DNA of 46,874 nt, taken from sequence record PQ850629.1; one strand, 5' to 3'. Below, one piece after another: positions 611 to 44,739 of this stretch (within the stretch, counting starts at the first letter, position 1; each line of letters opens with the position of its first letter). Position numbers and translations under genes: made by a program. Source of the DNA: Escherichia phage SusanneMuster_Bas79. The notes below the pieces were generated by a model. It did no database searches, had not been told where the DNA came from, and was given only the letters and a program-made list of their open reading frames with translations.

Positions 611-633
611 TATCTACGTCTATGTGTTAAAAT
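611..633 (+). promoter_or_regulatory. promoter region upstream of small terminase: conserved box plus extended -10
   Basis: TATCTACGTCTA (611-622) followed by TGTTAAAAT (625-633). Confidence 0.35.
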
Positions 634-2694: not shown

Positions 2695-2734
2695 TTGACC
2701 AATCTACACCGAGCGCATAGTATAATCTACATCA
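2695..2734 (+). promoter_or_regulatory. promoter with two conserved boxes
   Basis: TTGACC (2695-2700), box AATCTACACC (2701-2710), TATAAT (2721-2726) overlapping second box AATCTACATCA (2724-2734). Confidence 0.4.
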
Positions 2735-3988: not shown

Positions 3989-5401
3989 ATGTCAAAAATT
4001 GATGCATTAAACGCCTATATACGCGACCGCGTGGCGAACAATAACCGGGCGCTTCAGCAGCAGCGGCTTTGTGCTGGCGGGAAGAATCTGGACCAGAAAC
4101 GTGAGTTCATGTGGAAGGAACTGGGCTACCCGCAGGAAATAACCGCCGAGATGTTCCGCTATGCATACGAGCGACATCCAGCCGCCGCCGCTGGCATTAA
4201 CCGCATTATTAATAAATGCTGGCAGAAATATCCTGAAGTGGTCGAAGATGGCGAGGATGATAAGAACTCAACGCCGTGGGAGTTGTCCATCAACGATATG
4301 ATGAAGCGTGCCTATCCGTTCATCAAAGAGGCCGACAAGCGCAACGCCATCAACAGATACTCCGCTGTTATCCTGCAAATCCGCGATGGTCGCCAGTGGA
4401 GTGAGCCGGTAGACATCACCAAAACCCGCCGCATTAAAGATAAATCCATTGTTCGCTTTATCCCAGTATGGGAAGAGCAACTCCGCGTCAGCGCATGGAA
4501 TAACGATGAAACAAGTGAAGACTACGGCATGCCTGAGATGTACGAATATCAGGAAAGCGCCGTAGAGGATTTCGATAGCGACGGCAAGCCTGAGCGTTCC
4601 GTGCAGATTCATCCTGATCGCATTATCATTCTGGCAGAGGGTAGCTTCGATGGCAGTATGTTCAGTGGCATCCCGATGCTACGTGCTGGCTACAACAGCC
4701 TTATCGACATGGCTAAGGTTTCCGGTAGTTCAGCAGAAGGCTTCCTGAAGAATGCCAGCCGTCAACTGGCTGTTAACTACACGAAGGACAACGTAACGCC
4801 AGCAAGCCTTGCACAGTCAATGGGTGTATCTCAGGATGAGCTTATTGACATCATGAATGACAATATCGAGATGCTGAATTCTGGCATTGACGCTGCACTA
4901 TTTAGCATGGGCGCCGAGACTCAGGTGTTATCCGTAACGCCAGCTGACCCGAAACCAACATGGGAAGTGGCTGCCAACCAGTTCGCTGCATCAATGGCGC
5001 TTCCGTTCACCGTCATTTTCGGGCAGCAAACCGGACGCCTTGCGAGTGATGAAGACAAGATGCAGGAGGCGATGACTGCCAAGCAGCGCCGAGAAACATG
5101 GGTGGATTATGTTATCTCAATGTTCGTTGAGCGCATGATTCAGTTCGGCATCGTCGATAAAGCACCGGAAAATGGCTACAAGGTTAAGTGGGACGACCTG
5201 CTTGCTCCATCAGAGCTGGATAAGGCGGAGTTGCTGTCTAAGCTCGCCACTGCGAACAAGTCGTTCTTTGATGCTGGTCAATCTGCGTTGCTTACCGTCG
5301 ATGAGGCTCGCGGCATGGTTGGTATGGAGCCGATTGAACTTGATGAAAGTTATCGCGAAGACACGCCACCGGAAGATGAAAATGAAGATACTCCGGTTTA
5401 A
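3989..5401 (+). CDS. portal protein
   Basis: 470 aa; position between packaging genes and Mu-F-like head morphogenesis gene; acidic C-terminus; assignment mainly by synteny and size. Confidence 0.65.
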
Positions 5402-6335
5402 CGCAAGACTTCCGCAGCCGCGCATATCGCAGAGCCTGACCGACCCGTTAGGCGCTGCAACCCGCATGTCGAAGATGGACAAGGTGATAACGCGCAAATA
5501 TAAGCAACTCAGGACTCGTGCGCTTGAGTTGTTTCGCACCATTCCGCATAGTCAGACTAACGCAGAATCAAGCGGTCTGTATTTCTATGATTTCAGTAGT
5601 GCGCGCGCCGCTACTTTCATGGATGAGTTGCAGGCGCTGATTGACGAGATTCTGCTGGAAGGTGACGACTTCAGTCACGGCAGGATGTGGGCCAATGTGT
5701 TCATCGGTGATGCGTATCAGGCAGGAACGCAGAAGGCCAACTCTGAACTATCAAGCCTGTCTCCGGTTTATGCCGAGCAAAGGCCTATTGCCGCGATACT
5801 CTACAGTGAGCCATATCTGAATCGGCTGCGGCTTGCGTATACAGCTGGTTACTCGGACTGGCGAGGATTGAGTGATTACTCACGCCAACAACTGGCATCC
5901 GTCATTATGGAAGGCATTGCCCGTGGTGCCAATCCTCGAGATGTTGAGGCTGATATTGTTAAGCGTGTTGACGTGTCACATAGTTACGCGAAGCAGATAG
6001 CGCAGACTGAAATCACCGGAACGCTGCGGCAGGCTAACAGGAGAGAAGTCATTGAGGCTCGCGAGGAATTAGGTATTGAAACGGTGATGCTGTGGCAATC
6101 GGCATTATTGCCTGGTCGAACGAGATTTACTCACGCGGCACGGCACGGGCGGTTTTACGCGCCAGAGGAGATTGACACGTTCTATAGCGAGAATGGCAAT
6201 AGATATAATTGCCACTGTGCACAAGTACCAACATTGATAATGGATGGCAAGCCAGTCATTCTTGAGTCGTCGCAGGAAAGGCTTGATAAGCAGCGTGAAG
6301 CGTGGCAATCAGCCAATAAAAAGCCCTCTAAGTGA
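5376..6335 (+). CDS. head morphogenesis protein (Mu F / SPP1 gp7 family)
   Basis: C-terminal motif [16 protein letters not shown] resembles the conserved R-x-R-x2-H-x3-G core of the Mu F family; ORF track extends upstream to 5172 but overlaps portal, so ATG 5376 (or 5343/5382) is the likely start. Confidence 0.7.
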
Positions 6336-6349: not shown

Positions 6350-6357
6350 CTTATCAG

Positions 6358-6435
6358 CATACACAGAACGAATATTATTATCGCATACACAGAACGAATA
6401 TTATTATCGCATACACAGAACGAATATTATTATCG
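6358..6435. repeat. tandem direct repeat, 3 x 26 bp (CATACACAGAACGAATATTATTATCG) plus partial flanking copies
   Basis: three perfect consecutive copies read directly from the sequence, in a convergent intergenic region. Confidence 0.9.
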
Positions 6436-6470
6436 CATAGCACAATATCTCTACGACGCTGAATATTGTT

Positions 6471-7079
6471 TTAATCATCAAGTTTCACGCCGGGAATTTT
6501 GCCTGCTGCGATGGCTTCATAAATTAGCTTAGCCTCATCCTCGCGCTTGTAATCTTGCGCTACCATTTCTAATACCGCGCAGATAGATTCAAGTACAGCC
6601 TCATGCTTCCTTTCTGCTTCTGTGCGAAATGGGATGAAAACATCCTTATTGGATGGGGTTATTGCGTAGTAAATCTCACCAGATGGTCTGATAACTATTT
6701 TTTCGCCATCAAGACCAATAACCTTGACTTTTCCCCATGACGTTCCGTTGCTGATATACTCACATTCACACCCAACTGGCGGCAGTCCTTCTCCGTTCCA
6801 TGCTGAATTTTTCGATGCTGCGAGTGCTGCTTTGTATTGCCAATAGGTTACTATCGACTCCTTATGGTCGGAAGATAATTGCGTAGCCCATTCTTCTCCA
6901 TACCAGAAATGCACAAGGCTATTTCCTGTGTGATGTTTCCATGAGAACCCATCATAGTGTGGGTCATTTGTGTCCCATGCGCACAGCGAACCGTCATTAT
7001 CTTGAGTAATTGACAGCGCGTTTTGAGGCCACCAACCACGCTTAGGCAATTCTTGAACTAACAGGTCGATAAGTTTCAT
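6471..7079 (-). CDS. hypothetical protein (202 aa, Trp-rich)
   Basis: long ORF on minus strand, first of a leftward cassette between head and lysis genes. Confidence 0.5.
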   Translation of the reverse strand: MKLIDLLVQELPKRGWWPQNALSITQDNDGSLCAWDTNDPHYDGFSWKHHTGNSLVHFWYGEEWATQLSSDHKESIVTYWQYKAALAASKNSAWNGEGLPPVGCECEYISNGTSWGKVKVIGLDGEKIVIRPSGEIYYAITPSNKDVFIPFRTEAERKHEAVLESICAVLEMVAQDYKREDEAKLIYEAIAAGKIPGVKLDD

Positions 7080-7091
7080 TTTTGTTCTCCG

Positions 7092-7307
7092 TTAATAATT
7101 TGGCTTTACGTCTTTCATTGTTAGTGGCTTCCATCCACTTGCGATTGCAATATCAATACAATCCTCAAGCGTTTCAGCTTTTATTGGCTCACCAACTTCA
7201 CTATCATCAAATTTTCTCTGTATTTGATAGCCATCTACGACATAAAGAATCTCTACAGAACCATGTAGTGTGTGCATCGACTCAAGCCATTGCAGGTGGT
7301 AGCTCAT
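7092..7307 (-). CDS. hypothetical protein (71 aa)
   Basis: ORF with 4-nt overlap to upstream gene. Confidence 0.4.
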   Translation of the reverse strand: MSYHLQWLESMHTLHGSVEILYVVDGYQIQRKFDDSEVGEPIKAETLEDCIDIAIASGWKPLTMKDVKPNY

Positions 7308-7585
7308 TTTGTTCCCCCTAATGCCTTATTAACCGCAGCACGCGCATTATCTAGAGCGCGGCGCTTACTTGATGTTGTCCAGACTTTGCCGGAGTGGTCG
7401 TCGTAGATTTCCAGTAGTTGCTGGAGTGCTGATAGCATGGCCTTGTTATTATCGTGGCAATACCCAACAGAAAAGCCATGCCATAATTCATCCTTTTCTC
7501 TATCGGTCATGTCGCCAAACCCAACCGAATCAAACCATTCAATAAATAATTGGTACACTTCGCGTTGCGTCATTATCAACCTCAC
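7304..7585 (-). CDS. hypothetical protein (ATG at 7573 gives 89 aa)
   Basis: ORF on minus strand; track start is an alternative codon. Confidence 0.4.
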   Translation of the reverse strand: MRLIMTQREVYQLFIEWFDSVGFGDMTDREKDELWHGFSVGYCHDNNKAMLSALQQLLEIYDDHSGKVWTTSSKRRALDNARAAVNKALGGTK

Positions 7586-7725
7586 TTAATATATTCAATA
7601 ATCTCAACTTCACGCATCTGCACCAGACTAAATGGCGCAACCACTTTGCCGCATGGGCGGATTTTGATTTGCTCAAGGCCGAACATTCCGCAGCGTCCGT
7701 TTTCTTTGAATTTGACCATTACCAT
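7582..7725 (-). CDS. hypothetical small protein (47 aa)
   Basis: hand-translated ORF (MVMVKFKENGRCGMFGLEQ...), first gene after the divergent promoter. Confidence 0.3.
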   Translation of the reverse strand: MVMVKFKENGRCGMFGLEQIKIRPCGKVVAPFSLVQMREVEIIEYIK

Positions 7726-7740
7726 AATTTCTTCCTCACT

Positions 7741-7830
7741 CATCGTTTGATGTAGATACTATGCACCACCACTCAATCTACGTCAATAGCCATTGTGATA
7801 GAATTAATCATTATTTGAACAGGAGGCAGA
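7741..7830. promoter_or_regulatory. divergent promoter region with two conserved boxes
   Basis: TGATGTAGAT (7748-7757, reverse orientation) and AATCTACGTCAA (7775-7786); extended -10 TGATAGAAT (7796-7804); AGGAGG before ATG 7831. Confidence 0.45.
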
Positions 7831-8109
7831 ATGAAACTATCGCAACGCGGCATGGAGGTGTTTGGAATTACCGATGCCGTAGATATATCGCCTTACATCA
7901 CCACTGAGACAACACAGAATCAGTTTGATGCGCTGACAAGCCTTGCCACCGACATCGGCATTGACTCGTTCCGCAAATCAACGCTTCTGAAGAAACACAA
8001 TCTCCGCTGCTTCTCATGTGTCGTCGCGCATTTCATCGTGTGGGGTGAGAAGACTGGCGACAAAGCAAAATGCAAGGCTGAAAAAGAGGTTTACTGGTAT
8101 GGCTATTAG
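7831..8109 (+). CDS. degenerate lysozyme-like protein (P22 gp19-type fragment lacking catalytic core), possibly a remnant
   Basis: N-terminus MKLSQRG and segment NQFDALTSLATDIGIDSFRKSTLLKK resemble lysozyme N-terminus and the conserved NQ-[FY]-DAL...STLL-[RK]-K region, but the E-G-x-R-L / TIGYGHT catalytic segment is absent; overlaps next gene by 11 nt. Confidence 0.45.
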   Translation: MKLSQRGMEVFGITDAVDISPYITTETTQNQFDALTSLATDIGIDSFRKSTLLKKHNLRCFSCVVAHFIVWGEKTGDKAKCKAEKEVYWYGY

Positions 8110-8563
8110 CAAAAACATGAAGGCGTTTCTGGATATGCTGGCGTACAGCGAGGGCACTGATAACGGGCGGCAGAAAACCAATAATCATGGTTATGATGTG
8201 ATTGTTGGCGGCTCACTGTTTACCGACTATTCCGATCACCCGCGCAAGCTGATTAGCCTGCCTAAGCTGGGCATCAAATCCACTGCCGCCGGGCGCTATC
8301 AGGTGCTGGCTAAATTTTATGATGCGTACAAAAAGCAACTGCGCCTGCCTGACTTCTCCCCCGCGTCACAGGACGCTATCGCAATGCAACTAATCCGTGA
8401 ATGCAAAGCCACCGCCGATATTGAGACTGGTCGCATTGCTGATGCTATCCATAAATGCCGCTCCCGCTGGGCTTCATTACCGGGCGCTGGCTATGGTCAG
8501 CATGAGCAGAAGCTGGATAAGTTGATTCAGGTATACAAAGAGGCTGGCGGAGCTGTGGCATGA
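8099..8563 (+). CDS. endolysin, lambda R-type lytic transglycosylase
   Basis: MAISKNMKAFLDMLAYSEGTDNGRQKTNNHGYDVIVGG...FTDYSDHPRK...WASLPGAGYGQ closely parallels phage lambda R along its length. Confidence 0.9.
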   Translation: MAISKNMKAFLDMLAYSEGTDNGRQKTNNHGYDVIVGGSLFTDYSDHPRKLISLPKLGIKSTAAGRYQVLAKFYDAYKKQLRLPDFSPASQDAIAMQLIRECKATADIETGRIADAIHKCRSRWASLPGAGYGQHEQKLDKLIQVYKEAGGAVA

Positions 8564-8799
8564 AAAAGCTAAGCAACTGGCTGCTCGGCGCGTGGATTTC
8601 ATTCTGCTCACTATTGCAGCTATGGCCTGATGCAATGATGCACGTGTGGGTAATGATGCCGGACGACCTGAAAGCGGCGCTACCGCCAATCGTGGTCAAA
8701 GGTGTAAGCTACTCCATCATGCTGGTTGGTATTCTCGGAAAAATGCACGGCATGAGGAAGGAGAACCGGAGGCTGCGCAATGATGTCAATTCTCGCTAA
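8560..8799 (+). CDS. putative holin or small membrane protein
   Basis: 79 aa with two hydrophobic segments (WLLGAWISFCSLL, VSYSIMLVGILG) and basic C-terminus; lies between endolysin and spanins. Confidence 0.35.
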   Translation: MKKLSNWLLGAWISFCSLLQLWPDAMMHVWVMMPDDLKAALPPIVVKGVSYSIMLVGILGKMHGMRKENRRLRNDVNSR

Positions 8800-9271
8800 A
8801 TACTGGCGACCACTGGCAATTATTATAATTGTTGTCTCTGGCGCGTTGTGGGCGCGTAGCGAAATCATCAGCTACGGCGACCAACGATACGCAGAAGGCA
8901 AATCCCAAGCAATCGCCGAACAGAAGGCCGCAGACGAACAAGAGGAGCAACGACGCAATGCAGAACTGCAAAAGATTCAGGCTGACGCACAGCAAAGGAT
9001 TGACGCTGCGCGCAATGATGCTGTCAATGCTGCTGCTAAGTCTGGCAGGTTGCAGCAACAGCTCGCAAATATCCGCAAGCAGCTCGTCGGATATTCCACC
9101 GCTGAGTCCATTGGCAATCCAGCCGCAGAAACCGGAGTTTTGCTTGGAGACGTGCTCGGCAAATCTGTCGAAAGAAATCGACAACTGGCAGATTATGCTG
9201 ACAGGGCAAGAGAGGCAGGATTAGCGTGTGAGGCGCAGTATAATTCGCTGCGTAATAAAAAAGCCCCGTGA
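8780..9271 (+). CDS. i-spanin (Rz-like)
   Basis: N-terminal transmembrane segment LAIIIIVVSGALWA followed by a charged coiled-coil-like region; position after endolysin. Confidence 0.7.
   Translation: MMSILAKYWRPLAIIIIVVSGALWARSEIISYGDQRYAEGKSQAIAEQKAADEQEEQRRNAELQKIQADAQQRIDAARNDAVNAAAKSGRLQQQLANIRKQLVGYSTAESIGNPAAETGVLLGDVLGKSVERNRQLADYADRAREAGLACEAQYNSLRNKKAP
9015..9224 (+). CDS. o-spanin (Rz1-like lipoprotein) embedded in +1 frame of the i-spanin gene
   Basis: MMLSMLLLSLAGCSNSS lipobox followed by Pro-rich DIPPLSPLAIQPQKP; entirely inside 8780-9271 in another frame. Confidence 0.7.
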   Translation: MMLSMLLLSLAGCSNSSQISASSSSDIPPLSPLAIQPQKPEFCLETCSANLSKEIDNWQIMLTGQERQD

Positions 9272-9290
9272 TGGGGCTTGTGTTTAATTG
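9255..9290. terminator. bidirectional rho-independent terminator
   Basis: A-tract, stem AAGCCCC / GGGGCTT, T-rich tail; between convergent lysis and leftward cassette. Confidence 0.55.
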
Positions 9291-9410
9291 GTTTGTTAAG
9301 ATTCTTCCCGCTGCTTCCACATCTGTTTCAGCTGGAAATAAGCATACGCTTCATCACCATCTTTCGCATTGCGCTCCATTTGCTCACACCATGCCGATGG
9401 TTTTGGCGGC

Positions 9411-9716
9411 TCACTCTGCTGGCAATGTTGTTGGCTCATTAACAGATTCCTCAACCGCAGATTCAACGATGCGCACCAGTGAGCACTCAAGATTCGGTGC
9501 ATTGTAATTACCAGCCAGAAACAGAACACTGCCGGTGCTGATTAATACCTGCTTTGCGTTCGCCTGTGACAGATTCTGCACGATGAATTGCGCTGTTTCC
9601 GTGCCGATTTTTAGCACTGCGCTGCCGTCGCTGTTCAGTGATACCAGTTGTGCTGAAGTGTCGGTAATATTGGTGTAGCTCGCGTTTCGTTGCGCGATTG
9701 TTATGTCTGTGAACAT
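9411..9716 (-). CDS. hypothetical protein (101 aa)
   Basis: last gene of a four-gene leftward cassette. Confidence 0.4.
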   Translation of the reverse strand: MFTDITIAQRNASYTNITDTSAQLVSLNSDGSAVLKIGTETAQFIVQNLSQANAKQVLISTGSVLFLAGNYNAPNLECSLVRIVESAVEESVNEPTTLPAE

Positions 9717-9717
9717 A

Positions 9718-9939
9718 TTAGCCTCTTACGTTTAATTTGATTTTTCCATCCACGTCGCGTGATGCACACTCAACAGTGATTGTTAACTTGGTGATCTCTT
9801 CGACGTCTGCATCAAGAATCAAGCGGACGCAACCACCAACTATTCTACCATCCTGATCAACAACGCGAATTTTATCATCGACTCTTTCAACGTGGAGCCA
9901 AACCTTTTCTTCATCACAGCCATTATTGAGAATTGACAT
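9718..9939 (-). CDS. hypothetical protein (73 aa)
   Basis: tightly spaced ORF in leftward cassette. Confidence 0.4.
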   Translation of the reverse strand: MSILNNGCDEEKVWLHVERVDDKIRVVDQDGRIVGGCVRLILDADVEEITKLTITVECASRDVDGKIKLNVRG

Positions 9940-10370
9940 TATTTAATCTCCAGTTCTTTTGCGCGAATTGCGCTGTCAATGATGTCTTGCAAATCCTGTT
10001 CGCGCGATTTATGTCCGCGCTCGCCAGCCTGTAATGCCTTCTTGATTAAGTGCTGCAATGCAGGGTTGGTGACATTCCACGCCATGAGCACATCGTATAC
10101 GTCAACAAATATACCCGGCTTAATCTCGTGCAGGTATTTGTTATCAGCCTCAGGAGCGCCAATGCAATCATTGAGGTCTTGTTCGTCGGTAATTGGCTCG
10201 CGGTATGCAATAACAACATCCCCGCGACCCTCAATCACTTCAATGCGATCAGCATAATATTTGCTTAGATAGAAAATCTCACCAGTCCTTTCTGACTTAA
10301 CTACAAGATAAGCCGCGTTATGGCCAGCAAAATCATCCTCATAACCTTTCAGATATTTCCATTTTTTCAT
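9939..10370 (-). CDS. hypothetical protein (143 aa)
   Basis: ORF with C-terminal HLIKKALQAGERGHKSR segment; family not recognised with confidence. Confidence 0.45.
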   Translation of the reverse strand: MKKWKYLKGYEDDFAGHNAAYLVVKSERTGEIFYLSKYYADRIEVIEGRGDVVIAYREPITDEQDLNDCIGAPEADNKYLHEIKPGIFVDVYDVLMAWNVTNPALQHLIKKALQAGERGHKSREQDLQDIIDSAIRAKELEIK

Positions 10371-10561
10371 TTCATCGTCACCCGATTATTTTCATCAACA
10401 TTAAAATTATCACGAATCAAATCGTACATCTCATCCTTCGGCATATCAGCCAGCGCCACATAGCAACGGGCAAAGTAGCGAACATCACGGAGTGTCAGCG
10501 GCTGCCGCTTCTCCACAATGCTGGTGATAATGTCCATCGGCTCGCGTCGTGGTCTTGGCAT
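10367..10561 (-). CDS. hypothetical protein (64 aa)
   Basis: first gene of leftward cassette, start adjacent to divergent promoter. Confidence 0.4.
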   Translation of the reverse strand: MPRPRREPMDIITSIVEKRQPLTLRDVRYFARCYVALADMPKDEMYDLIRDNFNVDENNRVTMK

Positions 10562-10659
10562 ATTTACTACTCCTTTTTCGAAATTTATTATTGACGAATC
10601 TACGTCACTTAGTCAATACTGTTGGTGTAGAATGATTCTACCACAACGAAAGAGGTGAT
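10562..10659. promoter_or_regulatory. divergent promoter/operator region
   Basis: box GAATCTACGTCAC (10596-10608) and near-perfect palindrome GTAGAAT-G-ATTCTAC (10627-10641). Confidence 0.45.
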
Positions 10660-10863
10660 GTGGAAATGCGATACAAAGAAATAGCAGCGAGCTATCAGAA
10701 GGAAGTTCGCGAGGTTATGGAAATCCTTAACGTTCGAGAGGATACCATTAAGTATGTGGAAACTGCCATGTGTTCACTTGCTCTTGAAGCGGAGGTTGCA
10801 GGTCGTGAAAAGGCTGACGAACTTATATCTGCGTTGGTTTATAGTTCAACCAGTAACGGTTGA
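10660..10863 (+). CDS. hypothetical protein (about 66 aa)
   Basis: first ORF of a rightward early-type cluster; GAGG upstream. Confidence 0.4.
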   Translation: MEMRYKEIAASYQKEVREVMEILNVREDTIKYVETAMCSLALEAEVAGREKADELISALVYSSTSNG

Positions 10864-10923
10864 ATATGAAGGTTATCTGTGCGTTGAGCACGTTGTTATC
10901 AAGTTCTACGGGAGAAGTTATAA

Positions 10924-11118
10924 ATGGCGCATGACGAACTGTACGAAGAATCGTTAATCCAGCGACTGAATGAAGTTGAGCGCACACGCGAATGGCTGGA
11001 GTGCGAATTGCGAGAGGTGCGCAATCGACTGCAACGCAAACGCAGTCAACAGAAAGATGTTATCGACTGGTCTGGCAATGCACCTAAATTTAACAACATT
11101 GGAGAATGGTTGAAATGA
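10924..11118 (+). CDS. hypothetical protein (64 aa, charged/coiled)
   Basis: ORF track entry. Confidence 0.4.
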   Translation: MAHDELYEESLIQRLNEVERTREWLECELREVRNRLQRKRSQQKDVIDWSGNAPKFNNIGEWLK

Positions 11119-11336
11119 GAAAGTTCAGTACGTTAGTTGATTTAATTTTTGCTGACATAAGTGAGGATAACGCCAGAAGCGAGAAGTCAAAAAATCAGCG
11201 TCAGGATATTACGTTTCGCACACTGCTTAAGCAATCAATGCGCAATAAGAAGGAGTGGAGATACAGGCGCGACAGAGTTCTGATAAGACTGTGCAAATTG
11301 AATATGAATAAGATACTTAAGGATATGACCAAATGA
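11106..11336 (+). CDS. hypothetical protein (76 aa, basic)
   Basis: ORF with overlapping start/stop. Confidence 0.4.
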   Translation: MVEMRKFSTLVDLIFADISEDNARSEKSKNQRQDITFRTLLKQSMRNKKEWRYRRDRVLIRLCKLNMNKILKDMTK

Positions 11337-11581
11337 CAGCACCACATATGCCAATGATGAATGATAGCGGGTTGCTGTGCTGCCCATTCTGTGGCGGGAA
11401 TGAAGTTTACTTGAATATTGATTTAGTGCTTGTATCTGTCGAATGCGGAGATTGCTGTGCAAGTTCAGGTGAATGGGGTTCACCGGAAACCGCTGTCAGG
11501 CACTGGAACACCCGCAACGGACACCTATACACCGCAGACGACTTCAATCAGGCAGCAGAGGAGCGTGATTATGGACTATAA
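11333..11581 (+). CDS. Lar-family restriction alleviation protein (putative)
   Basis: zinc-ribbon pattern CCPFCGG...ECGDCC...AVRHWNTR matches the CPFCGG...C-x2-C...W-N-R-R signature I associate with Lar of the Rac prophage. Confidence 0.6.
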   Translation: MTAPHMPMMNDSGLLCCPFCGGNEVYLNIDLVLVSVECGDCCASSGEWGSPETAVRHWNTRNGHLYTADDFNQAAEERDYGL

Positions 11582-13377: not shown

Positions 13378-15257
<1,880 letters not shown>

Positions 15258-17312: not shown

Positions 17313-18112
17313 TAAACGGACCTCATGAATGCTTTAATGAATTCTGCTGCGACTTGTGGAACTATGGCATTGCCATAACCGCGCAATCGTCCCACTCTTG
17401 CGGATACCCCATGAGTTGCCTCGCAAAATCCGCCTGGTATGACTCTAGTTTCCTTATCTGCTCCATGGTTGGGTTTCCATGAATCCCATAAACATGAAGC
17501 CACATCTGGCGATAAAGAGTATCGTTCCTGAATTTTCCGTCCTTTCTGTAAAATGTCTTGCTGAGATCCCCGTAATCCTTCCATCCTCGCGCCGTTGGTG
17601 TCGCCCATCCTCGCGCCAAAGATGATTCTTTTCCTTTCCTGTGGAGAGCCGACGCTGCAAGCTGGCAATACTGACGCCCCGCAGGCGTAGCCTTTGTCTT
17701 CCAGGTTAAGGAATACAAAATCGAGCCAGTGCTTCCCAATTGCTGCTGCAACCTGCTCTCCAAACAGCAATTCAGGCTTGCACTCTCTGATGAGCCTGAG
17801 AAATGCTGGGGCAAGGTGTCGATCGTCGTCAAATCCGAGAGACTTACCGGCAACGCTAAACGGCTGGCAAGGTGGTGATCCTGTCCAGAGTCGAGTGCTT
17901 TCTGGTATTCCTGCCAGCTGGAGTGCAAGGGGCCACCCTCCGATTCCGGCAAAGAAGTGACACTGTGTAAATCCTTCCAGGTCTGAAGGGGTGACTTCGG
18001 TGATTGATCGTTCATCGACATATCCGTAAGGAATTAGTTTATTGTTAATTAATTCACGCAGCCATGCCGCTGCGCCCTTGTCCCACTCATTGTAATAGTG
18101 GACCATCATCAC
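17312..18112 (-). CDS. DNA (cytosine-5)-methyltransferase
   Basis: motif I FAGIGGW, motif IV PPCQPFS, motif VI FGEQV, motif X GNAIVPQV; compact 266 aa. Confidence 0.85.
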   Translation of the reverse strand: MMMVHYYNEWDKGAAAWLRELINNKLIPYGYVDERSITEVTPSDLEGFTQCHFFAGIGGWPLALQLAGIPESTRLWTGSPPCQPFSVAGKSLGFDDDRHLAPAFLRLIRECKPELLFGEQVAAAIGKHWLDFVFLNLEDKGYACGASVLPACSVGSPQERKRIIFGARMGDTNGARMEGLRGSQQDILQKGRKIQERYSLSPDVASCLWDSWKPNHGADKETRVIPGGFCEATHGVSARVGRLRGYGNAIVPQVAAEFIKAFMRSV

Positions 18113-18918
18113 ATCTTCTCCAGAATTGCCATCACCTCGTGAATATCAGCAACAGGAATCTGGATAAACTCCTCATTCTCTGCCACTACATGACCAGCAG
18201 GAAGAATAACGTGGTCAGCTGGCTTCAGTAACTCAATCAGTCGGTCTACTGGCTTAATCTTTTTCGACTTAAGCACCTTCGCCGTTACCTTATCCTTGCC
18301 TTGCGCCTTCGCTTCTTCGACTGCCTCGTCGATAACTTTAACCGCATCATCGCCATGTTCGCGAGTTACTGCTACGGCATTTGCATAGCTGATTTGCCCT
18401 GCACTGATTCGCGCTTTTACTTCGGCTGGCACATCACCCAGTGACAGGTGCATCTGCACGTCAGAAACTGAGCGCCCTACCTTCTTGGCGATTTCCTCGT
18501 TGGTCCAGCCAAAACCCTTCAGTCGCGTGTAAGCCTTTGCGCGTTCAAACGGGTCAAGCTGCTTACCCTGACTGGACGACACCATGAAGGCGATTTTATC
18601 TGCTTCGCCTCCTGTGAAATCCTTGCACTCAATACGAACAATTGGTGCGCCACGCTCAATGGCACGCAACGCTCCGAGATAGCGATGCTGACCATCAAGA
18701 ATGCGGATTCCCTTCTCGTCTGGAATAACTGTTAATGCTGGCAATGGCTGACCTGACTCCCAGCACTGCGCGAAATACTCCACATGCTGCTCATCTGCTT
18801 CGCGGATGTTGTATCCTGGTTCCAGATAGATTTGCTCAACTGGCACGAGATATGTCTTGTTTACCGCGATTCCGTTGCGCGTTTCTTTGTCTGAATAGAT
18901 TTTGCTTAGTGTTTTCAT
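18109..18918 (-). CDS. ParB/Srx-domain protein (ParB-like nuclease domain)
   Basis: N-terminal ILDGQHRYLGALRA (ParB box GxxRxxA), Lys/Ala-rich linker, C-terminal domain; 4-nt overlap with methyltransferase gene. Confidence 0.7.
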   Translation of the reverse strand: MKTLSKIYSDKETRNGIAVNKTYLVPVEQIYLEPGYNIREADEQHVEYFAQCWESGQPLPALTVIPDEKGIRILDGQHRYLGALRAIERGAPIVRIECKDFTGGEADKIAFMVSSSQGKQLDPFERAKAYTRLKGFGWTNEEIAKKVGRSVSDVQMHLSLGDVPAEVKARISAGQISYANAVAVTREHGDDAVKVIDEAVEEAKAQGKDKVTAKVLKSKKIKPVDRLIELLKPADHVILPAGHVVAENEEFIQIPVADIHEVMAILEKM

Positions 18919-19564: not shown

Positions 19565-19660
19565 TATTGTTGTTTCTACGTCACTAACTATAAACGCCAC
19601 ATCAATCTACGTCAACAGGAATATGCTAAAATCATGCTAATCAAAAAACAGGAGATTTGA
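19565..19660. promoter_or_regulatory. divergent promoter region with two conserved boxes
   Basis: TTTCTACGTCAC (19573-19584), CAATCTACGTCAAC (19603-19616), extended -10 TGCTAAAAT (19624-19632), GGAG before ATG 19663. Confidence 0.45.
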
Positions 19661-22119: not shown

Positions 22120-22830
22120 AAGCATTGCCAGCATGCTTTCTTAATATCCAGCCCCGTAACCCATACATACCCCTACATATGATTGCGATAATGCTGGATA
22201 TTAAGTGTTGTGGTGGCCGGTGCTGATATCCGGCATAAGGCGCTTATTCGGCGGCGTCGAGCTTGCTTATTCGCTTGAGCCATCCTCGTGAGTCAGCCAC
22301 GTCCCACTGCGCATCAGCCTGCGCATTCACCACAACGGAAATAGCACTGGATAACCAAGCGCGCAGACTCTTCACGATTATCTGCTCAATGCTCTTACCT
22401 GTTGTGTGCCACGTTTCGTGTGGCTTACGGCAACGACATTACCGGGTTATTCGCTGCACCCTTGAGGGATTTACTAAGGCGACATGCCCGTTGTTACCCA
22501 CGAATGAGAGTACTGTCTTCGAGCAGACTTTGCCGCGCAAGAACGACGATCAATCACAATACCCTCATTTGTGGGTGCCCATTATTAATCACAGCGGGCC
22601 ACTGCGCCGAATTTGCTTACAAGGAATCGGAAGACCTTGCTGACTTACAGGCTATTACGCCGCCATCAGAACAACATCATCGTTTGCATTTATCTTTGTG
22701 GTCAGTTTCTAAAAAGTCCGCAAAGTCGCTTACGAAAACCATCTGAAATACAATCTACACCACAAAATAATCACTGTCAACACCTGTGATATAATCACCA
22801 CGTTAGCAGCTAACACAATTCGGAGATCGA
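22120..22830. other. ORF-free, inverted-repeat-rich region of about 0.7 kb upstream of major tail gene
   Basis: no plausible ORF on either strand; perfect 12-bp inverted repeat TTAATATCCAGC / GCTGGATATTAA (22141-22152 / 22192-22203); long-range inverted repeat CCCACGAATGAG / CTCATTTGTGGG (about 22497-22510 / 22563-22575); promoter elements at 22751-22796. Confidence 0.5.
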
Positions 22831-24502: not shown

Positions 24503-24610
24503 AACTCACCTCATTTATTCATCACTCGTTTCGATGACTTGAATCTACATCACCACCTCGCAGGTGTCAACACCACTGAGATGATATAATCAACATCAGT
24601 CAAATTCAGG
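24503..24610. promoter_or_regulatory. divergent promoter region
   Basis: box TTGAATCTACATCACC (24539-24554), extended -10 TGATATAAT (24582-24590) upstream of ATG 24611. Confidence 0.4.

Positions 24611-28268: not shown

Positions 28269-28269
<1 letters not shown>
25327..28269 (+). CDS. tail tape measure protein
   Basis: 980 aa, long helical Ala/Gln/Lys-rich sequence, internal hydrophobic segments and a Thr/Ala low-complexity tract. Confidence 0.85.
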
Positions 28270-32991
<4,722 letters not shown>

Positions 32992-33030
32992 TACAATATA
33001 CATCAAATTCACAAAGGAGCATTTATTATA

Positions 33031-35468: not shown

Positions 35469-36524
35469 TTAAAATCCTTCAATTGGAGTTGGTTTGTGTT
35501 CTGTTTTTTCTTCCTGCGGTTCTGGCTGCTGTGGTTGCGGTTTAGCCAGTTTTGCAGGATTGAAATTATCCTGCGGAGTTATTACCACAGGAGATAATTG
35601 CTCATCATTGATAAAAGACTCAATGCGATCATATTCAGCGGCAGAAGCAGCCAGAGAAGGCCAGATTGCGCGAATTTTATCTTTCAGGTTATCAGGTATT
35701 GATTTTGCTTCTTCCTTCAGGCCTTCCATGCCTTTTGCTGCAGAAAGCTGAAGTCTTGAGCGCCATGACTCAAACTCTTCGTCAACTTTAACGCCAGAGT
35801 CAACCCATTTGATGAGTCCGCGACCATGCGCCTCTCCAATATATCCATGGCGAACACTTTCACGACCAGACTCAAAGAATATTGGGCGTAGTTCTTCTGG
35901 TAATTTTGTGAACTCCTGAATTTTTCCTCCATCGTGCATCATCATGCTCACGGTCATCTCGAACATGAAATCTTTCTCGCACACTGGTTGCAACCCAAGT
36001 GATACAGGTTCCTTCGGGTTTGCGAAATCAGTTTTCTGACGTGCGCGAAGGCAGACAATGATATGCATATTGCTTTGTAGCATGGCATTCATGAACTTCT
36101 TGTGTTCAGCTTTGGCGCGCTTCCAGTCAGCCATCTTTTTACCGTTAAGCAGCGGCTTTTCAGCAATCTCCGTGCAACTGCCTTCACCTTCCCATTCATG
36201 CGAACCTGAATCAATAACAAGAACCTTAACGCCGGCAGCCTGAAACTCTTCAATGGCCTGACGGTAACGGGCCGGGCTGAATGGAGCATACATATCAGCG
36301 TGCAGGAATTTGCCATCAAGGATGTTTGAGTACAGGCGACCGCGACCGTTTTCAGTATCAAGGAATCCGATTTCTTCTGGTGAATCAACCATCCCGCGAG
36401 CCAGCTTAAGTGCGCTATATGTTTTGCCGCTACCTGACTGGCCTGAAATGCCGATGACCACGCGAGAACCTGAACGCTCTGCTGGTTTAATATTGAGAAT
36501 ACCCATTTGCATTACCTCACTCAA
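35469..36524 (-). CDS. RecA-like ATPase (Sak4-like recombination protein)
   Basis: Walker A GISGQSGSGKT near N-terminus; next to SSB and exonuclease. Confidence 0.6.
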   Translation of the reverse strand: MSEVMQMGILNIKPAERSGSRVVIGISGQSGSGKTYSALKLARGMVDSPEEIGFLDTENGRGRLYSNILDGKFLHADMYAPFSPARYRQAIEEFQAAGVKVLVIDSGSHEWEGEGSCTEIAEKPLLNGKKMADWKRAKAEHKKFMNAMLQSNMHIIVCLRARQKTDFANPKEPVSLGLQPVCEKDFMFEMTVSMMMHDGGKIQEFTKLPEELRPIFFESGRESVRHGYIGEAHGRGLIKWVDSGVKVDEEFESWRSRLQLSAAKGMEGLKEEAKSIPDNLKDKIRAIWPSLAASAAEYDRIESFINDEQLSPVVITPQDNFNPAKLAKPQPQQPEPQEEKTEHKPTPIEGF

Positions 36525-38335: not shown

Positions 38336-38776
38336 TCAATCTACATCATTCAGCAAGCCAAAATAGAAAAGTGTGGCTCTTTTTAGTTCATCAAGACCGT
38401 AAGCAATGGCGGCATAATGACCAAGTCTGCACATCTCAGTTAACACAGCCGATTGCTCCTTGCTCACTCTGCTTTTGCTTTTATCGCGGCGCTTTGACTC
38501 AATCATCCCGCAACTGTGATTCGCACCCGGCGTCATTATCACGTTGTCGCCTATTCCAGGCTTAACCCCCATCTTCTGGCGCTTCAGTACGAACTGGACG
38601 CGGCTGGATGTTCCTGTTTCATTCGGGACGTGAAACCATAGCACATCAGGGAAACAGTGTTGCATCCATGTTCCATAACCCATCTGGTCAGTCTCCTCTT
38701 TTGGGCATTCGCCGCGATAACCGCTATCAAATACCCATATACCGCTATCAAGCTGCTTCACTTTGTTCTCCTGCAA
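38336..38776 (-). CDS. VRR-NUC domain nuclease
   Basis: 146 aa; WFHVPNE...GVKPGIGD...MIESKRR pattern consistent with VRR-NUC; overlaps helicase gene end. Confidence 0.6.
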   Translation of the reverse strand: MQENKVKQLDSGIWVFDSGYRGECPKEETDQMGYGTWMQHCFPDVLWFHVPNETGTSSRVQFVLKRQKMGVKPGIGDNVIMTPGANHSCGMIESKRRDKSKSRVSKEQSAVLTEMCRLGHYAAIAYGLDELKRATLFYFGLLNDVD

Positions 38777-40685: not shown

Positions 40686-40760
40686 AGCTACTAACCTTTG
40701 TTGATGTTTCTACGTCAGTTAGCTTATACTCAATCTACACCAACAATCAAGGGTCAATTT
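40686..40760. promoter_or_regulatory. divergent promoter region between helicase and primase
   Basis: TTGATG -35 (40701-40706), box TTTCTACGTCAG (40707-40718), TATACT -10 (40725-40730), box CAATCTACACCAAC (40731-40744). Confidence 0.45.
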
Positions 40761-42048: not shown

Positions 42049-42304
42049 TATTTCCCTCCAGAATCCAAACTGAATTACCAATACGACTGTTATTTAAATC
42101 CTTTGACACGCGGCCATCCTTACAAAGAGAAATCAGAACCTTCCGTAACTTCGCTGCTGTCCATTCATCATCAGGAAATTCATTCACCATTGATAGACGC
42201 AAACTCCACGTAGCCACTGAGAACTTACGAAAAATTCCAAGTTTCTCCTCCTCAATGGATTTTCTCTTTCTCATCACATATAAAACCTTATCCTTCACAT
42301 CCAT
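42041..42304 (-). CDS. hypothetical protein (87 aa)
   Basis: ORF track entry. Confidence 0.35.
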   Translation of the reverse strand: MDVKDKVLYVMRKRKSIEEEKLGIFRKFSVATWSLRLSMVNEFPDDEWTAAKLRKVLISLCKDGRVSKDLNNSRIGNSVWILEGNNG

Positions 42305-42314
42305 TTCCTTACCC

Positions 42315-42506
42315 TCACTTAATCATCATCTTTGAAATATCAACGTGACCAACACAAAATCTGTGCCAGTAATCATCAAGCATGTGGTAATTAGAGCGAA
42401 TCCATACTTTGTTAATCCGGCTCCAGAAAAACCACGTCGAATAACCATGCGGCCTGAAATGCCATAAACCTTCTGAGCGACAAATTTCGCCTGATATTGT
42501 TCTCAT
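42315..42506 (-). CDS. hypothetical protein (63 aa)
   Basis: ORF track entry, Trp-rich. Confidence 0.3.
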   Translation of the reverse strand: MRTISGEICRSEGLWHFRPHGYSTWFFWSRINKVWIRSNYHMLDDYWHRFCVGHVDISKMMIK

Positions 42507-44295: not shown

Positions 44296-44348
44296 ATTAT
44301 GATTGAATCATATCATAAGTATTGAATCATGCAACATCAAATACGACT

Positions 44349-44663
44349 CACGTGGGTAACGTGGGGCAGCCGTGGGGAACATCACCTTCCCCACGAACTT
44401 TTACTCTAAGTATATGTAATATAATATAATTATTATTATTTGGGTTAATGGGTAATATTATTATTCATATTATAGATAGTAATTAACATAATATTAACAA
44501 ATGGATTATTTGAATATATTTATAAGGGGATGGGTATGAAATCTGCCCCTTTTTACCCACGAAAAATAAAAACATTCAAATCAATAATTTACGATGAAAA
44601 ACGTGGGGCAACCAACCTTCCCCACGACCTGCCCCACGAGCAAAAATTTACCCCACGGGCACG
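44349..44663. repeat. iteron-flanked AT-rich region (candidate replication origin / control region)
   Basis: about 9 copies of CCCCACG / CGTGGGG (4 left, 5 right, both orientations) flanking a roughly 120-bp strongly AT-rich core (44400-44520). Confidence 0.6.
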
Positions 44664-44680
44664 TTTTTAACGCATCCCTG

Positions 44681-44711
44681 TTGACGTAGAATCATCGTTG
44701 ATGTAGATTGA
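44681..44711 (+). promoter_or_regulatory. promoter for rightward early genes built from two reversed conserved boxes
   Basis: TTGACGTAGAAT (44681-44692) supplies -35 TTGACG; TGATGTAGATTG (44699-44710) supplies -10 TAGATT with 17-bp spacing; GAGGGTGAAGAG before ATG 44740. Confidence 0.45.
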
Positions 44712-44739
44712 ACTCATCGAAACAAACGAGGGTGAAGAG

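What the first reader, a model, noticed from the sequence alone, without database searches (positions are those of the whole stretch)
7748..7786. Genome-wide promoter-associated box AATCTAC[G/A][T/C]CA, often in pairs and in both orientations
Near-identical copies occur in almost every intergenic control region: 611-622, 2701-2710, 2724-2734, 7748-7757 (reverse), 7775-7786, 10596-10608, 19573-19584, 19603-19616, 22751-22762, 24539-24554, 38338-38348, 40707-40718, 40731-40744, 44681-44692 (reverse) and 44699-44710 (reverse). The reverse complement (TTGACGTAGAT / TGATGTAGATT) can supply -35-like TTGAC and -10-like TAGAT hexamers, so the box may be the phage promoter core, but its paired arrangement and variable placement relative to the extended -10 elements (TGnTATAAT at several sites) also fit an operator for one regulator coordinating all modules.
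Basis: seen in the sequence. Interest (0 to 1): 0.6.

Follow-up and report, generated by a model that had tools for sequence, protein, structure and literature searches.

The report
Conserved operator box in phage promoters
An 11-base word (WATCTACRYCA) sits inside almost every promoter of this lytic E. coli phage and its relatives and is conserved beyond what the host RNA polymerase needs, so it is most likely the binding site of one phage regulator, possibly its ParB/KorB-like protein, controlling all gene modules.

Summary
AATCTACRYCA occurs 9 times exactly against 0.06 expected. Of 20 TCTACRYC cores, 15 lie in the 5.3% of the genome that is non-coding.

The window is a complete Skatevirus-cluster siphovirus, about 99% identical to BASEL phage Bas77 over the 6400-11400 region compared. 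The box is the top over-represented word de novo here and in a distant Klebsiella relative. It sits at orthologous promoters across phages of Escherichia, Salmonella, Shigella and Klebsiella.

The box occupies a few recurring registers:
- Promoters of the -35/-10 type (early and middle genes) carry two boxes over the -35/spacer and the -10/+1.
- Extended -10 promoters (structural and lysis genes) carry one forward box upstream.
- Its reverse complement often supplies TTGACG (-35) or TAGATT (-10).

Box positions outside the sigma70 hexamers vary about 20-fold less than neighbouring bases. At one locus the box has flipped orientation while keeping its position.

Best reading: an asymmetric operator of a dedicated regulator, mainly repressive. 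The only conserved recognisable DNA-binding candidate is a ParB/KorB-family protein (18109-18918, minus strand), but this link is circumstantial. No description was found in the searchable literature. Interest is moderate to high, and the idea is directly testable.

The parts
611..621 (+). Box TATCTACGTCT, forward, at -29..-19 of the extended -10 promoter TGtTAAAAT (625-633). It follows terminator 586-604 and lies upstream of gene 670 and TerL.
2701..2711 (+). Box AATCTACACCG, directly after the -35 TTGACC, in the spacer (-29..-19) of promoter 2695-2723 (TTGACC-N17-TAGTAT).
2724..2734 (+). Box AATCTACATCA, directly after the -10 TAGTAT, covering -6..+5 of the same promoter.
7748..7758 (-). Box TATCTACATCA (focal site), forward relative to the leftward promoter and covering its -7..+4.
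7775..7785 (+). Box AATCTACGTCA (focal site). Its reverse complement gives the -35 TTGACG of the leftward promoter 7786-7758 (TTGACG-N17-CATAGT). It also lies at -36..-26 of the rightward lysis promoter TGaTAGAAT (7796-7804).
10597..10607 (+). Box AATCTACGTCA in the spacer (-30..-20) of the rightward promoter 10591-10620 (TTGACG-N18-AATACT), and in the spacer of the leftward promoter 10616-10587 (TTGACT-N18-AATAAT).
10623..10633 (-). It covers -4..+7 of the rightward promoter and -5..+6 of the leftward TGgTAGAAT promoter. The box at this position has the opposite orientation in phage ASO78B.
19573..19583 (+). Box TTTCTACGTCA over -3..+8 (reverse orientation) of the leftward promoter of the operon that encodes the ParB/KorB-like protein.
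19604..19614 (+). Box AATCTACGTCA. Its reverse complement gives the -35 of the leftward promoter 19615-19587 (TTGACG-N17-TATAGT). It is also forward at -35..-25 of the rightward extended -10 promoter TGcTAAAAT (19624-19632).
22752..22762 (+). Box AATCTACACCA. Its reverse complement TAGATT is the -10 of the leftward TTGACA-N17-TAGATT promoter (22780-22752). It is also forward at -50..-40 of the major-tail-protein promoter TGaTATAAT (22787-22795).
24542..24552 (+). Box AATCTACATCA. Its reverse complement TAGATT is the -10 of the leftward TTGACA-N17-TAGATT promoter (24570-24542). It is also forward at -55..-45 of the tail-operon promoter TGaTATAAT (24582-24590).
24588..24598 (+). Degenerate box AATCAACATCA over -9..+2 of the tail-operon promoter.
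32995..33005 (+). Degenerate box AATATACATCA upstream of the tail-fibre gene, next to TGaTACAAT (32989-32997). The orthologous site in Vi II-E1 is a perfect box.
38338..38348 (+). Box AATCTACATCA at the 3' end of gene 38336-38683(-), inside the leftward replication operon. No promoter was detected. The position is conserved in relatives, where it is duplicated in tandem in ASO78B and MK54.
40707..40717 (+). Box TTTCTACGTCA directly after the -35 TTGATG, in the spacer (-30..-20) of the primase promoter 40701-40730 (TTGATG-N18-TATACT).
40732..40742 (+). Box AATCTACACCA over -5..+6 of the primase promoter.
44682..44692 (-). Box ATTCTACGTCA. Its reverse complement TTGACG is the -35 of the rightward early promoter 44681-44709.
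44699..44709 (-). Box AATCTACATCA. Its reverse complement TAGATT is the -10 of the same promoter (TTGACG-N17-TAGATT).
18109..18918 (-). Candidate reader: a 269-aa ParB/Spo0J/KorB-family protein with an N-domain and an HTH. Its recognition helix RSVSDVQMHLSL is invariant in all box-carrying lineages. Its own operon promoter is covered by two boxes.

Best explanation
The box WATCTACRYCA is an asymmetric 11-bp operator. It is read as a unit by a dedicated sequence-specific DNA-binding protein and is embedded in the core of the phage's sigma70-type promoters. The reverse complement of the operator (TTGAYGTAGAWW) contains a -35-like and a -10-like hexamer, so the same DNA often serves as both promoter element and operator.

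Shown from sequence:
- There are two promoter classes.
- Class E promoters (TTGACN-N17/18-TAnnnT) drive the leftward small-gene, replication and ParB operons, primase, the Lar operon and the right-end early genes. They usually carry two boxes that cover the -35/spacer and the -10/+1.
- Class L promoters (extended -10 TGnTAnAAT with no -35) drive terminase, lysis, connector, tail-tube, tail and fibre genes. They carry a forward box upstream of the -10.

Inferred:
- Once made, the regulator occludes class E promoters, including its own (autoregulation). The back-to-back extended -10 promoters do not need a -35 contact, so RNA polymerase can still use them. This gives an early-to-late switch across all modules.
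- The most likely reader is the phage's ParB/KorB-family HTH protein (18109-18918, minus strand). Its flexible dimer could bridge paired boxes of variable spacing and orientation.

For: Enrichment and location: (15 of 20 cores in 5.3% non-coding sequence). Across 81 cluster loci, 437 of 611 cores lie in about 10.5% non-ORF sequence, and the logo has sharp edges with no partner half-site.

Unbiased discovery: the box is the top over-represented 9-mer in the window and in Klebsiella phage MK54, whose TerL is 61% identical. It is the top intergenic 8-mer in three lineages.

Footprint: the control region stays 84-87% identical where the flanking genes no longer align. Among 50 distinct versions, the box-specific half of box 2 varies at 1.3% and the sigma70 half at 0.3%, against 28% and 45% for adjacent non-box bases.

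Registers: they are discrete and recur in the window and in MK54.

Position kept, orientation not: the box downstream of AATACT is reversed in four phages and forward in ASO78B. The locus downstream of TerL shows three different two-box arrangements.

Reader: the ParB/KorB-like protein has Pfam HTH_ParB at 2.5e-11 and KorB at 4.5e-6, and matches PDB Spo0J at 6e-13 and KorB at 3e-3. It is 99% identical to Vi II-E1's copy and 80% to MK54's. It is retained in the 37.8-kb viable genome-reduced seszw mutant, while the MarR-like gene, the methyltransferase, RusA and SSB are gone (PMC9825161). Its recognition helix is invariant in box lineages down to 65% overall identity and differs in box-less homologs. 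No other universally conserved protein shows a DNA-binding domain.
Against: There are no binding, transcript-start or expression data for any member of the cluster. All promoters and start sites are predicted.

The link to the ParB-like protein is correlative and confounded by phylogeny. Homologs at 45-50% identity come with no alternative box, so true covariation could not be shown.

ParB-family proteins normally read palindromes as dimers, whereas this site is asymmetric.

Vi II-E1 has several boxes mutated at invariant positions although its ParB-like protein is 99% identical. Individual sites are therefore dispensable.

The box at 38338 has no detectable promoter. Box-to-(-10) distances at the tail-tube and tail promoters differ by 4-10 bp between lineages, so any activating role there lacks a fixed geometry.
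Confidence: 0.45

Rival explanations
1. There is no dedicated factor. The box is a reusable sigma70 promoter module (TTGACG plus TAGATT) that spread by duplication and recombination among control regions, and it is read only by host RNA polymerase.
For: In 7 of 16 full copies the reverse complement supplies a hexamer with a good partner at 17-18 bp. Two boxes 17 bp apart form a complete promoter at different loci in the window (44681) and in MK54 (39849/39866). In several decayed copies the hexamers persist while box-specific bases change. Three of the five sigma70 promoters independently annotated in ASO78B overlap boxes.
Against: Nine or more copies supply no hexamer: forward copies in the spacer at 611, 2701, 10597 and 40707, and over +1 at 2724, 7748, 10623 and 40732. 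Non-hexamer box positions, including the 3' CA and AATCTA, are about 20-fold more constrained than neighbouring spacer bases. The logo is a sharply bounded 11-mer. The orientation flip at a constant position makes no sense for a hexamer.
Confidence: 0.15
2. The box is an activator site that substitutes for the missing -35 at the extended -10 late promoters, in the manner of the T4 MotA box. Overlaps with other promoters are secondary.
For: At the lysis and connector promoters the forward box lies 12-13 bp upstream of the -10 (-36..-25), and 11-12 bp upstream in MK54. All five full boxes at extended -10 promoters are forward-oriented. None of those promoters has a usable -35.
Against: The box-to-(-10) distance is 6 bp at the terminase promoter and 27 and 32 bp at the tail-tube and tail promoters, and it shifts by 4-10 bp between lineages. 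Vi II-E1 keeps intact extended -10 elements at the lysis and connector promoters although the boxes there are mutated. Most boxes lie over core elements of -35/-10 promoters, where an activator would clash with polymerase.
Confidence: 0.15
3. The box is the site of a host protein conserved across Enterobacterales, such as a global regulator or nucleoid protein that the phage exploits.
For: The box sequence is identical in phages of Escherichia, Salmonella, Shigella, Klebsiella and Citrobacter. This is what a conserved host reader would give.
Against: From memory, and not tested here, I know of no E. coli factor whose consensus matches WATCTACRYCA. DnaA, FNR/CRP half-sites, NarL, MetJ and IHF each differ at invariant positions. 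The box co-occurs strictly with one phage HTH protein whose recognition helix is frozen. The more distant relative Kp4864-1 also infects Klebsiella and lacks the box.
Confidence: 0.1
4. The boxes are module-boundary linker sequences that promote recombination between mosaic phages and have no transcriptional role.
For: The boxes lie at boundaries between modules that differ among relatives: the leftward cargo operons and the swapped replication modules.
Against: Eleven bases are too short for homologous exchange. The fixed registers relative to the -35, -10 and +1, and the absence of boxes from convergent module boundaries, point to transcription.
Confidence: 0.03

Closest known systems
KorB / OB operator network of IncP plasmid RK2
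   Same: A ParB-family HTH protein acts as a global transcriptional regulator through a dozen or so dispersed operators at or near the promoters of all functional modules, including its own operon (PMC11790492). The candidate reader here matches the Pfam KorB domain and the PDB KorB chains.
   Different: OB is a 13-bp palindrome read by a dimer, and KorB is a CTP-dependent sliding clamp that works with KorA. Here the site is an asymmetric 11-mer. It lies inside core promoter elements, not upstream of them or at a distance. The CTP-binding motifs are degenerate (GERRxR to GQHRYL, ENLQRE to SSSQGK). No KorA-like partner is identified. The element is a strictly lytic phage.
Phage phi29 protein p4 switch at divergent early/late promoters (from memory)
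   Same: One phage protein binds between back-to-back promoters. It represses early -35/-10 promoters and favours a late promoter that lacks a -35.
   Different: p4 is unrelated in fold, binds inverted repeats at a single control region and activates through a defined contact with polymerase. Here there are about 18 asymmetric sites in about 11 control regions, and activation is not supported.
T4 MotA box / AsiA, and Thermus phage P23-45 gp39 (from memory)
   Same: Both show a temporal shift from -35-dependent promoters to promoters that rely on a -10 or extended -10. The T4 MotA box sits about 12 bp upstream of the -10, like the boxes at 7775 and 19604.
   Different: Those systems act by remodelling polymerase, and the MotA box has one fixed position and orientation. 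Here the box occurs in at least six registers and both orientations, mostly overlapping core elements.
P1 ParB / parS (boxes A and B) and Shigella VirB
   Same: These are ParB-family proteins that read short asymmetric box motifs in variable arrangements through flexibly linked domains (P1, from memory), or that act as transcription regulators and not as partition proteins (VirB; PMC3905869).
   Different: P1 parS is a single centromere with an IHF site. VirB counteracts H-NS from an inverted repeat. Neither has sites embedded in the -35/-10 elements of many promoters. No sequence similarity to WATCTACRYCA was established.

Membership tests
Sigma70 promoter elements (box is only a -35 or -10 hexamer) | A partner hexamer lies 16-18 bp away in the correct orientation. 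| tested here: inconclusive
   Met for 7 of 16 full copies and not met for the others.
Sigma70 promoter elements (box is only a -35 or -10 hexamer) | Selective constraint is limited to the hexamer, and adjacent bases are free to vary. | tested here: not met
   The non-hexamer half AATCTA varies at 1.3%, against 28-45% for adjacent bases. The logo is 11 bases with sharp edges.
Transcription-factor operator / regulon | The motif is over-represented and concentrated in promoter regions. | tested here: met
Transcription-factor operator / regulon | The motif is conserved at orthologous promoters while flanking sequence diverges. | tested here: met
Transcription-factor operator / regulon | A cognate protein binds the site, and transcription changes as a result. 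| not testable with these tools
   No EMSA, ChIP or transcript data exist for this cluster (literature).
ParB/KorB family (candidate reader 18109-18918, minus strand) | A central ParB-type HTH DNA-binding domain. | tested here: met
   PF17762 at 2.5e-11 and PF08535 at 4.5e-6. PHROG 1033 at 3e-90. Aligned to the Spo0J HTH.
ParB/KorB family (candidate reader 18109-18918, minus strand) | [quoted passage not shown] | tested here: inconclusive
   The N-domain aligns to Spo0J residues 42-139, but the motifs read GQHRYL and SSSQGK. The fold is likely present. CTP binding is doubtful.
ParB/KorB family (candidate reader 18109-18918, minus strand) | A palindromic parS/OB-type site read by a dimer. | tested here: not met
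   The box is asymmetric with no partner half-site at any fixed distance. The only palindrome-like repeats (CGTGGGG..CCCCACG) co-vary with the DUF3987 helicase, not with the ParB-like gene.
ParB/KorB family (candidate reader 18109-18918, minus strand) | A partner ParA ATPase (partition) or KorA (co-repressor). | tested here: inconclusive
   None is annotated in Bas77, ASO78B, Vi II-E1 or MK54. The only P-loop hit is the recombination-type AAA_24. Not every small ORF was screened.
T4 MotA-box type activator site | A fixed position (about -30) and a fixed orientation relative to the -10. | tested here: not met
   Forward boxes at extended -10 promoters have centres at about -24, -30, -31, -45 and -50, and the distances shift between lineages.

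The most novel reading that the evidence does not exclude
A strictly lytic siphovirus uses an orphan ParB/KorB-like protein, probably not a CTPase, as a master switch. The protein reads a monomer-type 11-bp operator whose reverse complement is itself a -35/-10 building block. Operator and promoter are therefore the same DNA. Modules can be flipped, duplicated or re-spaced and remain both transcribed and regulated. Occluding -35-dependent promoters hands RNA polymerase to the back-to-back extended -10 late promoters without any activator.
Probability: 0.3. Interest if true: 0.75.

Novelty: new variant of a known kind. Interest (0 to 1): 0.58.

Why it matters
Skatevirus, Macdonaldcampvirus and Roufvirus-type phages are repeatedly isolated as therapy and biocontrol candidates against Salmonella, E. 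coli, Shigella and Klebsiella. Their gene regulation is uncharacterised in the searchable literature, and genome papers annotate only generic sigma70 matches.

A single 11-bp word that marks essentially every promoter gives an immediate transcription-unit map and a two-class promoter model. It also gives a concrete candidate master regulator that survived extensive experimental genome reduction.

It would also show the family reading an asymmetric site embedded in core promoters.

For engineering, the box is a portable handle for building or silencing phage promoters.

Tried and rejected
1. I first assumed a Guernseyvirinae (Jersey/K1G) identity. This was wrong. The BASEL paper and NCBI taxonomy place the relatives in the Skatevirus/Macdonaldcampvirus cluster. 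The 'phage promoter' consensus reported for the kagunavirus fBC-Eco01 is unrelated.

2. The variant word AACTACATC also looked over-represented. All 10 ACTACRYC copies are coding, several of them in-frame Asn-Tyr-Ile, so this is a codon effect.

3. The CCCCACG/CGTGGGG repeats are not sites for the ParB-like protein. They co-vary with the DUF3987 helicase module and are absent from Bas77, ASO78B and seszw, which keep the ParB-like gene.

4. It is absent from MK54 and deleted in the viable minimal seszw mutant. orf518 is rejected likewise, because a different helicase replaces it in seszw and Bas77.

5. The covariation test gave nothing. ep3, Kp4864-1 and L089-L092 have ParB homologs at 45-50% identity, and none carries the box or any analogous dispersed word.

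6. The second motif TGTCAACACC is explained as the -35 (TTGACA) of leftward promoters.

7. There are no tRNA or Rfam RNA genes in the window, so an RNA-gene explanation fails.

8. No transcriptome, start-site or box description was found in the literature. The 2008 Vi II-E1 genome paper is not held, so an earlier mention there cannot be excluded.

9. The supplements of the genome-reduction paper are not held. I read the mutant genome directly instead.
Full report
IDENTITY OF THE WINDOW. The 46,874-bp window is a complete genome of a small lytic siphovirus. Over the 6400-11400 region compared, the nearest record is Escherichia phage ClaudiaMuster_Bas77 at about 99% identity, and most of its genes map one-to-one onto the window. 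[quoted passage not shown] NCBI puts the relative Vi II-E1 in Macdonaldcampvirus. My first guess of Guernseyvirinae was wrong. The genome alternates rightward blocks (packaging, head, lysis, tail) with leftward blocks (small accessory genes, a ParB-like/methyltransferase/RusA operon, and replication/recombination). There are six divergent and six convergent gene gaps.

THE OBSERVATION.
- AATCTACRYCA occurs 9 times exactly against 0.06 expected, with no shuffle reaching 9. With one mismatch or fewer it occurs 16 times against 3.0.
- One full copy was missed (10623-10633, minus strand), as were two degenerate copies (24588 and 32995).
- With a gene map transferred from Bas77, non-coding DNA is 5.3% of the genome. 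It holds 15 of the 20 TCTACRYC cores (binomial p about 1e-15).
- Every divergent gap has boxes and no convergent gap has one.
- A similar word, AACTACATC, is purely coding (0 of 10 intergenic; several copies read Asn-Tyr-Ile in frame). It is not part of the system, and it shows how specific the T at box position 3 is.

CONSERVATION.
- The same box at the same control regions is found in Bas77, ASO78B, Vi II-E1, a genome-reduced seszw mutant and Klebsiella phage MK54 (TerL only 61% identical). In MK54 it is again the top 9-mer.
- It persists in a deeper uncultivated lineage (L084/L085). There the structural proteins are 40-57% identical and the gene order differs.
- Over 81 cluster loci, 437 of 611 cores lie in about 10.5% non-ORF DNA. 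The logo built from 69 non-redundant intergenic contexts is a sharply bounded, asymmetric W-A-T-C-T-A-C-R-Y-C-A. No information appears at any other position, so there is no fixed partner half-site.
- The control region between the ParB operon and the connector genes still aligns at 84-87% in Klebsiella phages and in a phage labelled Aeromonas, where the flanking genes no longer align.
- Among 50 distinct versions of that region, the variant fractions are: box 1, 0.2%; the leftward -10, 0%; the sigma70 half of box 2 (CGTCAA), 0.3%; the box-specific half of box 2 (AATCTA), 1.3%. The non-box spacer varies at 28%, and the 3 bp between box 1 and the -10 at 45%.
- The part of the box that a -35 hexamer does not need is therefore about 20-fold more constrained than its neighbours.

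ANATOMY: TWO PROMOTER CLASSES AND A FEW RECURRING REGISTERS (the same in MK54). Positions assume +1 lies 7 nt after the -10. All promoters are predictions.

Class E promoters have a near-consensus -35 and usually two boxes over the core:
- 2695-2723, TTGACC-N17-TAGTAT: boxes at -29..-19 and -6..+5.
- 10591-10620, TTGACG-N18-AATACT: boxes at -30..-20 and -4..+7.
- 40701-40730, TTGATG-N18-TATACT: boxes at -30..-20 and -5..+6.
- 7786-7758 (leftward), TTGACG-N17-CATAGT: the box forms the -35, with a second box at -7..+4.
- 19615-19587 (leftward, ParB operon), TTGACG-N17-TATAGT: the box forms the -35, with a second box at -3..+8.
- 44681-44709, TTGACG-N17-TAGATT: the two boxes are the -35 and the -10.
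- The leftward TTGACA-N17-TAGATT promoters at 22780-22752 and 24570-24542: a single box forms the -10.
These promoters drive accessory, replication, primase and right-end early genes.

Class L promoters have an extended -10 and no usable -35, with a forward box upstream:
- 625-633, TGtTAAAAT: box at -29..-19 (terminase).
- 7796-7804, TGaTAGAAT: box at -36..-26 (lysis).
- 19624-19632, TGcTAAAAT: box at -35..-25 (connectors).
- 22787-22795, TGaTATAAT: box at -50..-40 (tail tube).
- 24582-24590, TGaTATAAT: box at -55..-45 (tail).
- 32989-32997, TGaTACAAT: degenerate box (fibre).

The generic promoter scan gives no more hits than shuffled sequence overall. Its best hits nevertheless coincide with boxes, and 3 of the 5 sigma70 promoters that other authors annotated in ASO78B overlap boxes.

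WHY NOT SIMPLY SIGMA70 HEXAMERS. Seven copies are used that way. Two boxes 17 bp apart build a whole promoter, at different loci in the window and in MK54. Four facts argue against this being the whole explanation:
- Nine or more copies supply no hexamer.
- The non-hexamer positions are strongly constrained.
- The box immediately downstream of the -10 AATACT is reverse-oriented in the window, Vi II-E1, Bas77 and seszw, but forward-oriented at the same place in ASO78B.
- The locus downstream of TerL keeps two boxes in three different arrangements: 23 bp apart, 17 bp apart, and 79 bp apart.
Position conserved with orientation free is how a protein-binding site that works by occupancy behaves. 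It is not how a polymerase element or an RNA signal behaves.

ACTIVATOR OR REPRESSOR. Most boxes cover the -35, spacer, -10 or +1 of a promoter that looks competent on its own. This predicts repression by occlusion, including autoregulation of the ParB operon. For the class L promoters a MotA-like activating role is conceivable at the lysis and connector promoters, where the box lies 11-13 bp upstream of the -10. The distance is 6, 27 and 32 bp elsewhere, however, and it drifts by 4-10 bp between lineages.

Vi II-E1 adds a natural experiment. The leftward operon next to the lysis genes has been lost there. Both boxes carry substitutions at otherwise invariant box positions (TCTAC to TCTGC, TATC to TGCC), while TTGACG, CATAGT and the rightward TGaTAGAAT are intact. 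Its connector-promoter box is also mutated (AATCCACGTCA). The late promoters thus tolerate box loss.

I therefore favour a model in which box occupancy shuts the -35-dependent promoters and polymerase remains able to use the back-to-back extended -10 promoters. This step is inferred, not shown.

WHO READS THE BOX. Among proteins shared by the window, Vi II-E1, MK54 and the minimal seszw mutant, only one has a recognisable sequence-specific DNA-binding domain. It is the 269-aa product of 18109-18918 (minus strand).
- It matches Pfam HTH_ParB (2.5e-11) and KorB (4.5e-6), and PHROG 1033 'ParB-like partition protein'.
- It aligns with Spo0J (6e-13), Noc and KorB chains over its N-domain and HTH.
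- It is 99% identical to Vi II-E1's copy and 80% to MK54's. It is at least 95% identical in 136 phage records.
- It is retained in the smallest viable genome-reduced seszw isolate (37.8 kb). There the MarR-like gene, methyltransferase, RusA, SSB and much of the early region are gone. In that study 53 of 81 genes were removable (PMC9825161).
- Its recognition helix (…KKVgRSVSDVQMHLSL) is invariant in all box-carrying lineages down to 65% overall identity. It differs at exposed positions in every box-less homolog (RSESDIIQHLQL, RSPSDVANMLAL, RSLSDVDYHLHL, RSASDVKNHLTL).
- Its own operon promoter carries two boxes.

The other candidates fail. The MarR-like protein and orf518 (DUF3987) are not universal. 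The CCCCACG iterons follow orf518, not the ParB-like gene. The small universal proteins show no DNA-binding signature, although unknown folds cannot be excluded.

Weaknesses of the ParB link:
- The correlation is confounded by phylogeny.
- Box-less homologs have no alternative dispersed motif, so there is no true covariation.
- ParB-family sites are normally palindromes.
- The nucleotide-binding motifs are degenerate (GQHRYL for GERRxR, SSSQGK for ENLQRE). A KorB-like CTP clamp mechanism should therefore not be assumed.

COMPARISON WITH KNOWN SYSTEMS. Functionally the closest analogue is KorB with its OB sites on RK2, a ParB-family global regulator with operators at the promoters of all modules (PMC11790492). 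The differences are an asymmetric site, placement inside core promoter elements, degenerate CTP motifs, no identified KorA or ParA partner, and a lytic phage as the host element. The early-to-late logic (-35-dependent promoters against extended -10 promoters) recalls T4 AsiA/MotA, Thermus phage P23-45 gp39 and phi29 p4. These comparisons come from memory and serve as leads only. Here the agent would be a DNA-bound occluder and not a polymerase-binding factor. Membership in the sigma70-hexamer-only and MotA-box categories fails on tested features. Membership of the candidate reader in the ParB/KorB family is met for the HTH, inconclusive for the CTPase motifs and not met for a palindromic site.

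NOVELTY AND VERDICT. No paper in the searchable library mentions this box or the regulation of these phages. The 2008 Vi II-E1 paper could not be read. The finding is real, strongly non-random and deeply conserved. Its interpretation as an operator network is well supported by comparative sequence evidence but is experimentally untested. I rate it a new variant of a known kind, with interest 0.58.

Noticed in passing
window 6351-6444: There are 3.5 tandem copies of a 26-bp unit (TTATCGCATACACAGAACGAATATTA, 97% matches). They lie in the convergent gap between the head-morphogenesis gene and the leftward gene 6471-7079. Function unknown.
   Followed up: partly
window 44296-44739 (CCCCACG at 44360, 44371, 44389, 44602, 44620, 44632, 44651): An AT-rich core (about 44400-44530) is flanked by seven CCCCACG/CGTGGGG copies, some forming inverted repeats, which looks like an origin with iterons. 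The repeats are present only in genomes that carry the DUF3987 helicase orf518 (window 42503-44059; Vi II-E1; MK54). They are absent from Bas77, ASO78B and seszw, which have other helicases. seszw has GGGATAA repeats instead.
   Followed up: partly
window 22752-22780 (minus strand): A good leftward promoter (TTGACA-N17-TAGATT) has no leftward gene, tRNA or Rfam RNA behind it in this phage. At the same place ASO78B has two leftward tRNA genes, and Vi II-E1 has an anti-repressor-like gene. This looks like a cargo insertion slot whose promoter is kept when empty.
   Followed up: partly
window 22263-22746: The homolog of Bas77 gene 57 (160 aa) is split into two overlapping frames here (22263-22643 and 22402-22746). 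This is a frameshift, a pseudogene or a sequencing error.
   Followed up: no
window 40698-40760: The primase start annotated in Bas77 and seszw (equivalent to window 40704, just after the TTG at 40698) would put two boxes and the predicted promoter inside the gene. The ATG at 40760 is conserved in MK54 and Vi II-E1, and the upstream sequence is not. The true start is probably 40760.
   Followed up: partly
window 18109-18918 (minus strand), residues about 60-125: The ParB-like protein has GQHRYL in place of the GERRxR arginine patch and SSSQGK in place of ENLQRE. It may not bind or hydrolyse CTP, unlike canonical ParB, Noc and KorB.
   Followed up: partly
window 28960-28970: One good box (TATCTACATCA) lies deep inside the coding sequence of gene 28269-29642 and is also present in Bas77. 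This could be chance, or an internal regulatory site. The gene is a long fusion relative to Vi II-E1 and MK54.
   Followed up: no
L003 (Vi II-E1) 5400-5480, 14450-14465 and 42215-42230: Vi II-E1 carries several boxes with single substitutions at otherwise invariant positions (14 cores against 20 in the window). Its ParB-like protein is nevertheless 99% identical to the window's.
   Followed up: partly
L006 (seszw_270S) 36095-36125: Relative to the window, seszw has a 17-19 bp deletion in the focal control region. It removes most of the box equivalent to 7775 and collapses the leftward promoter's spacer. The mutant is still viable. I did not check whether the wild type has the same deletion.
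   Followed up: no
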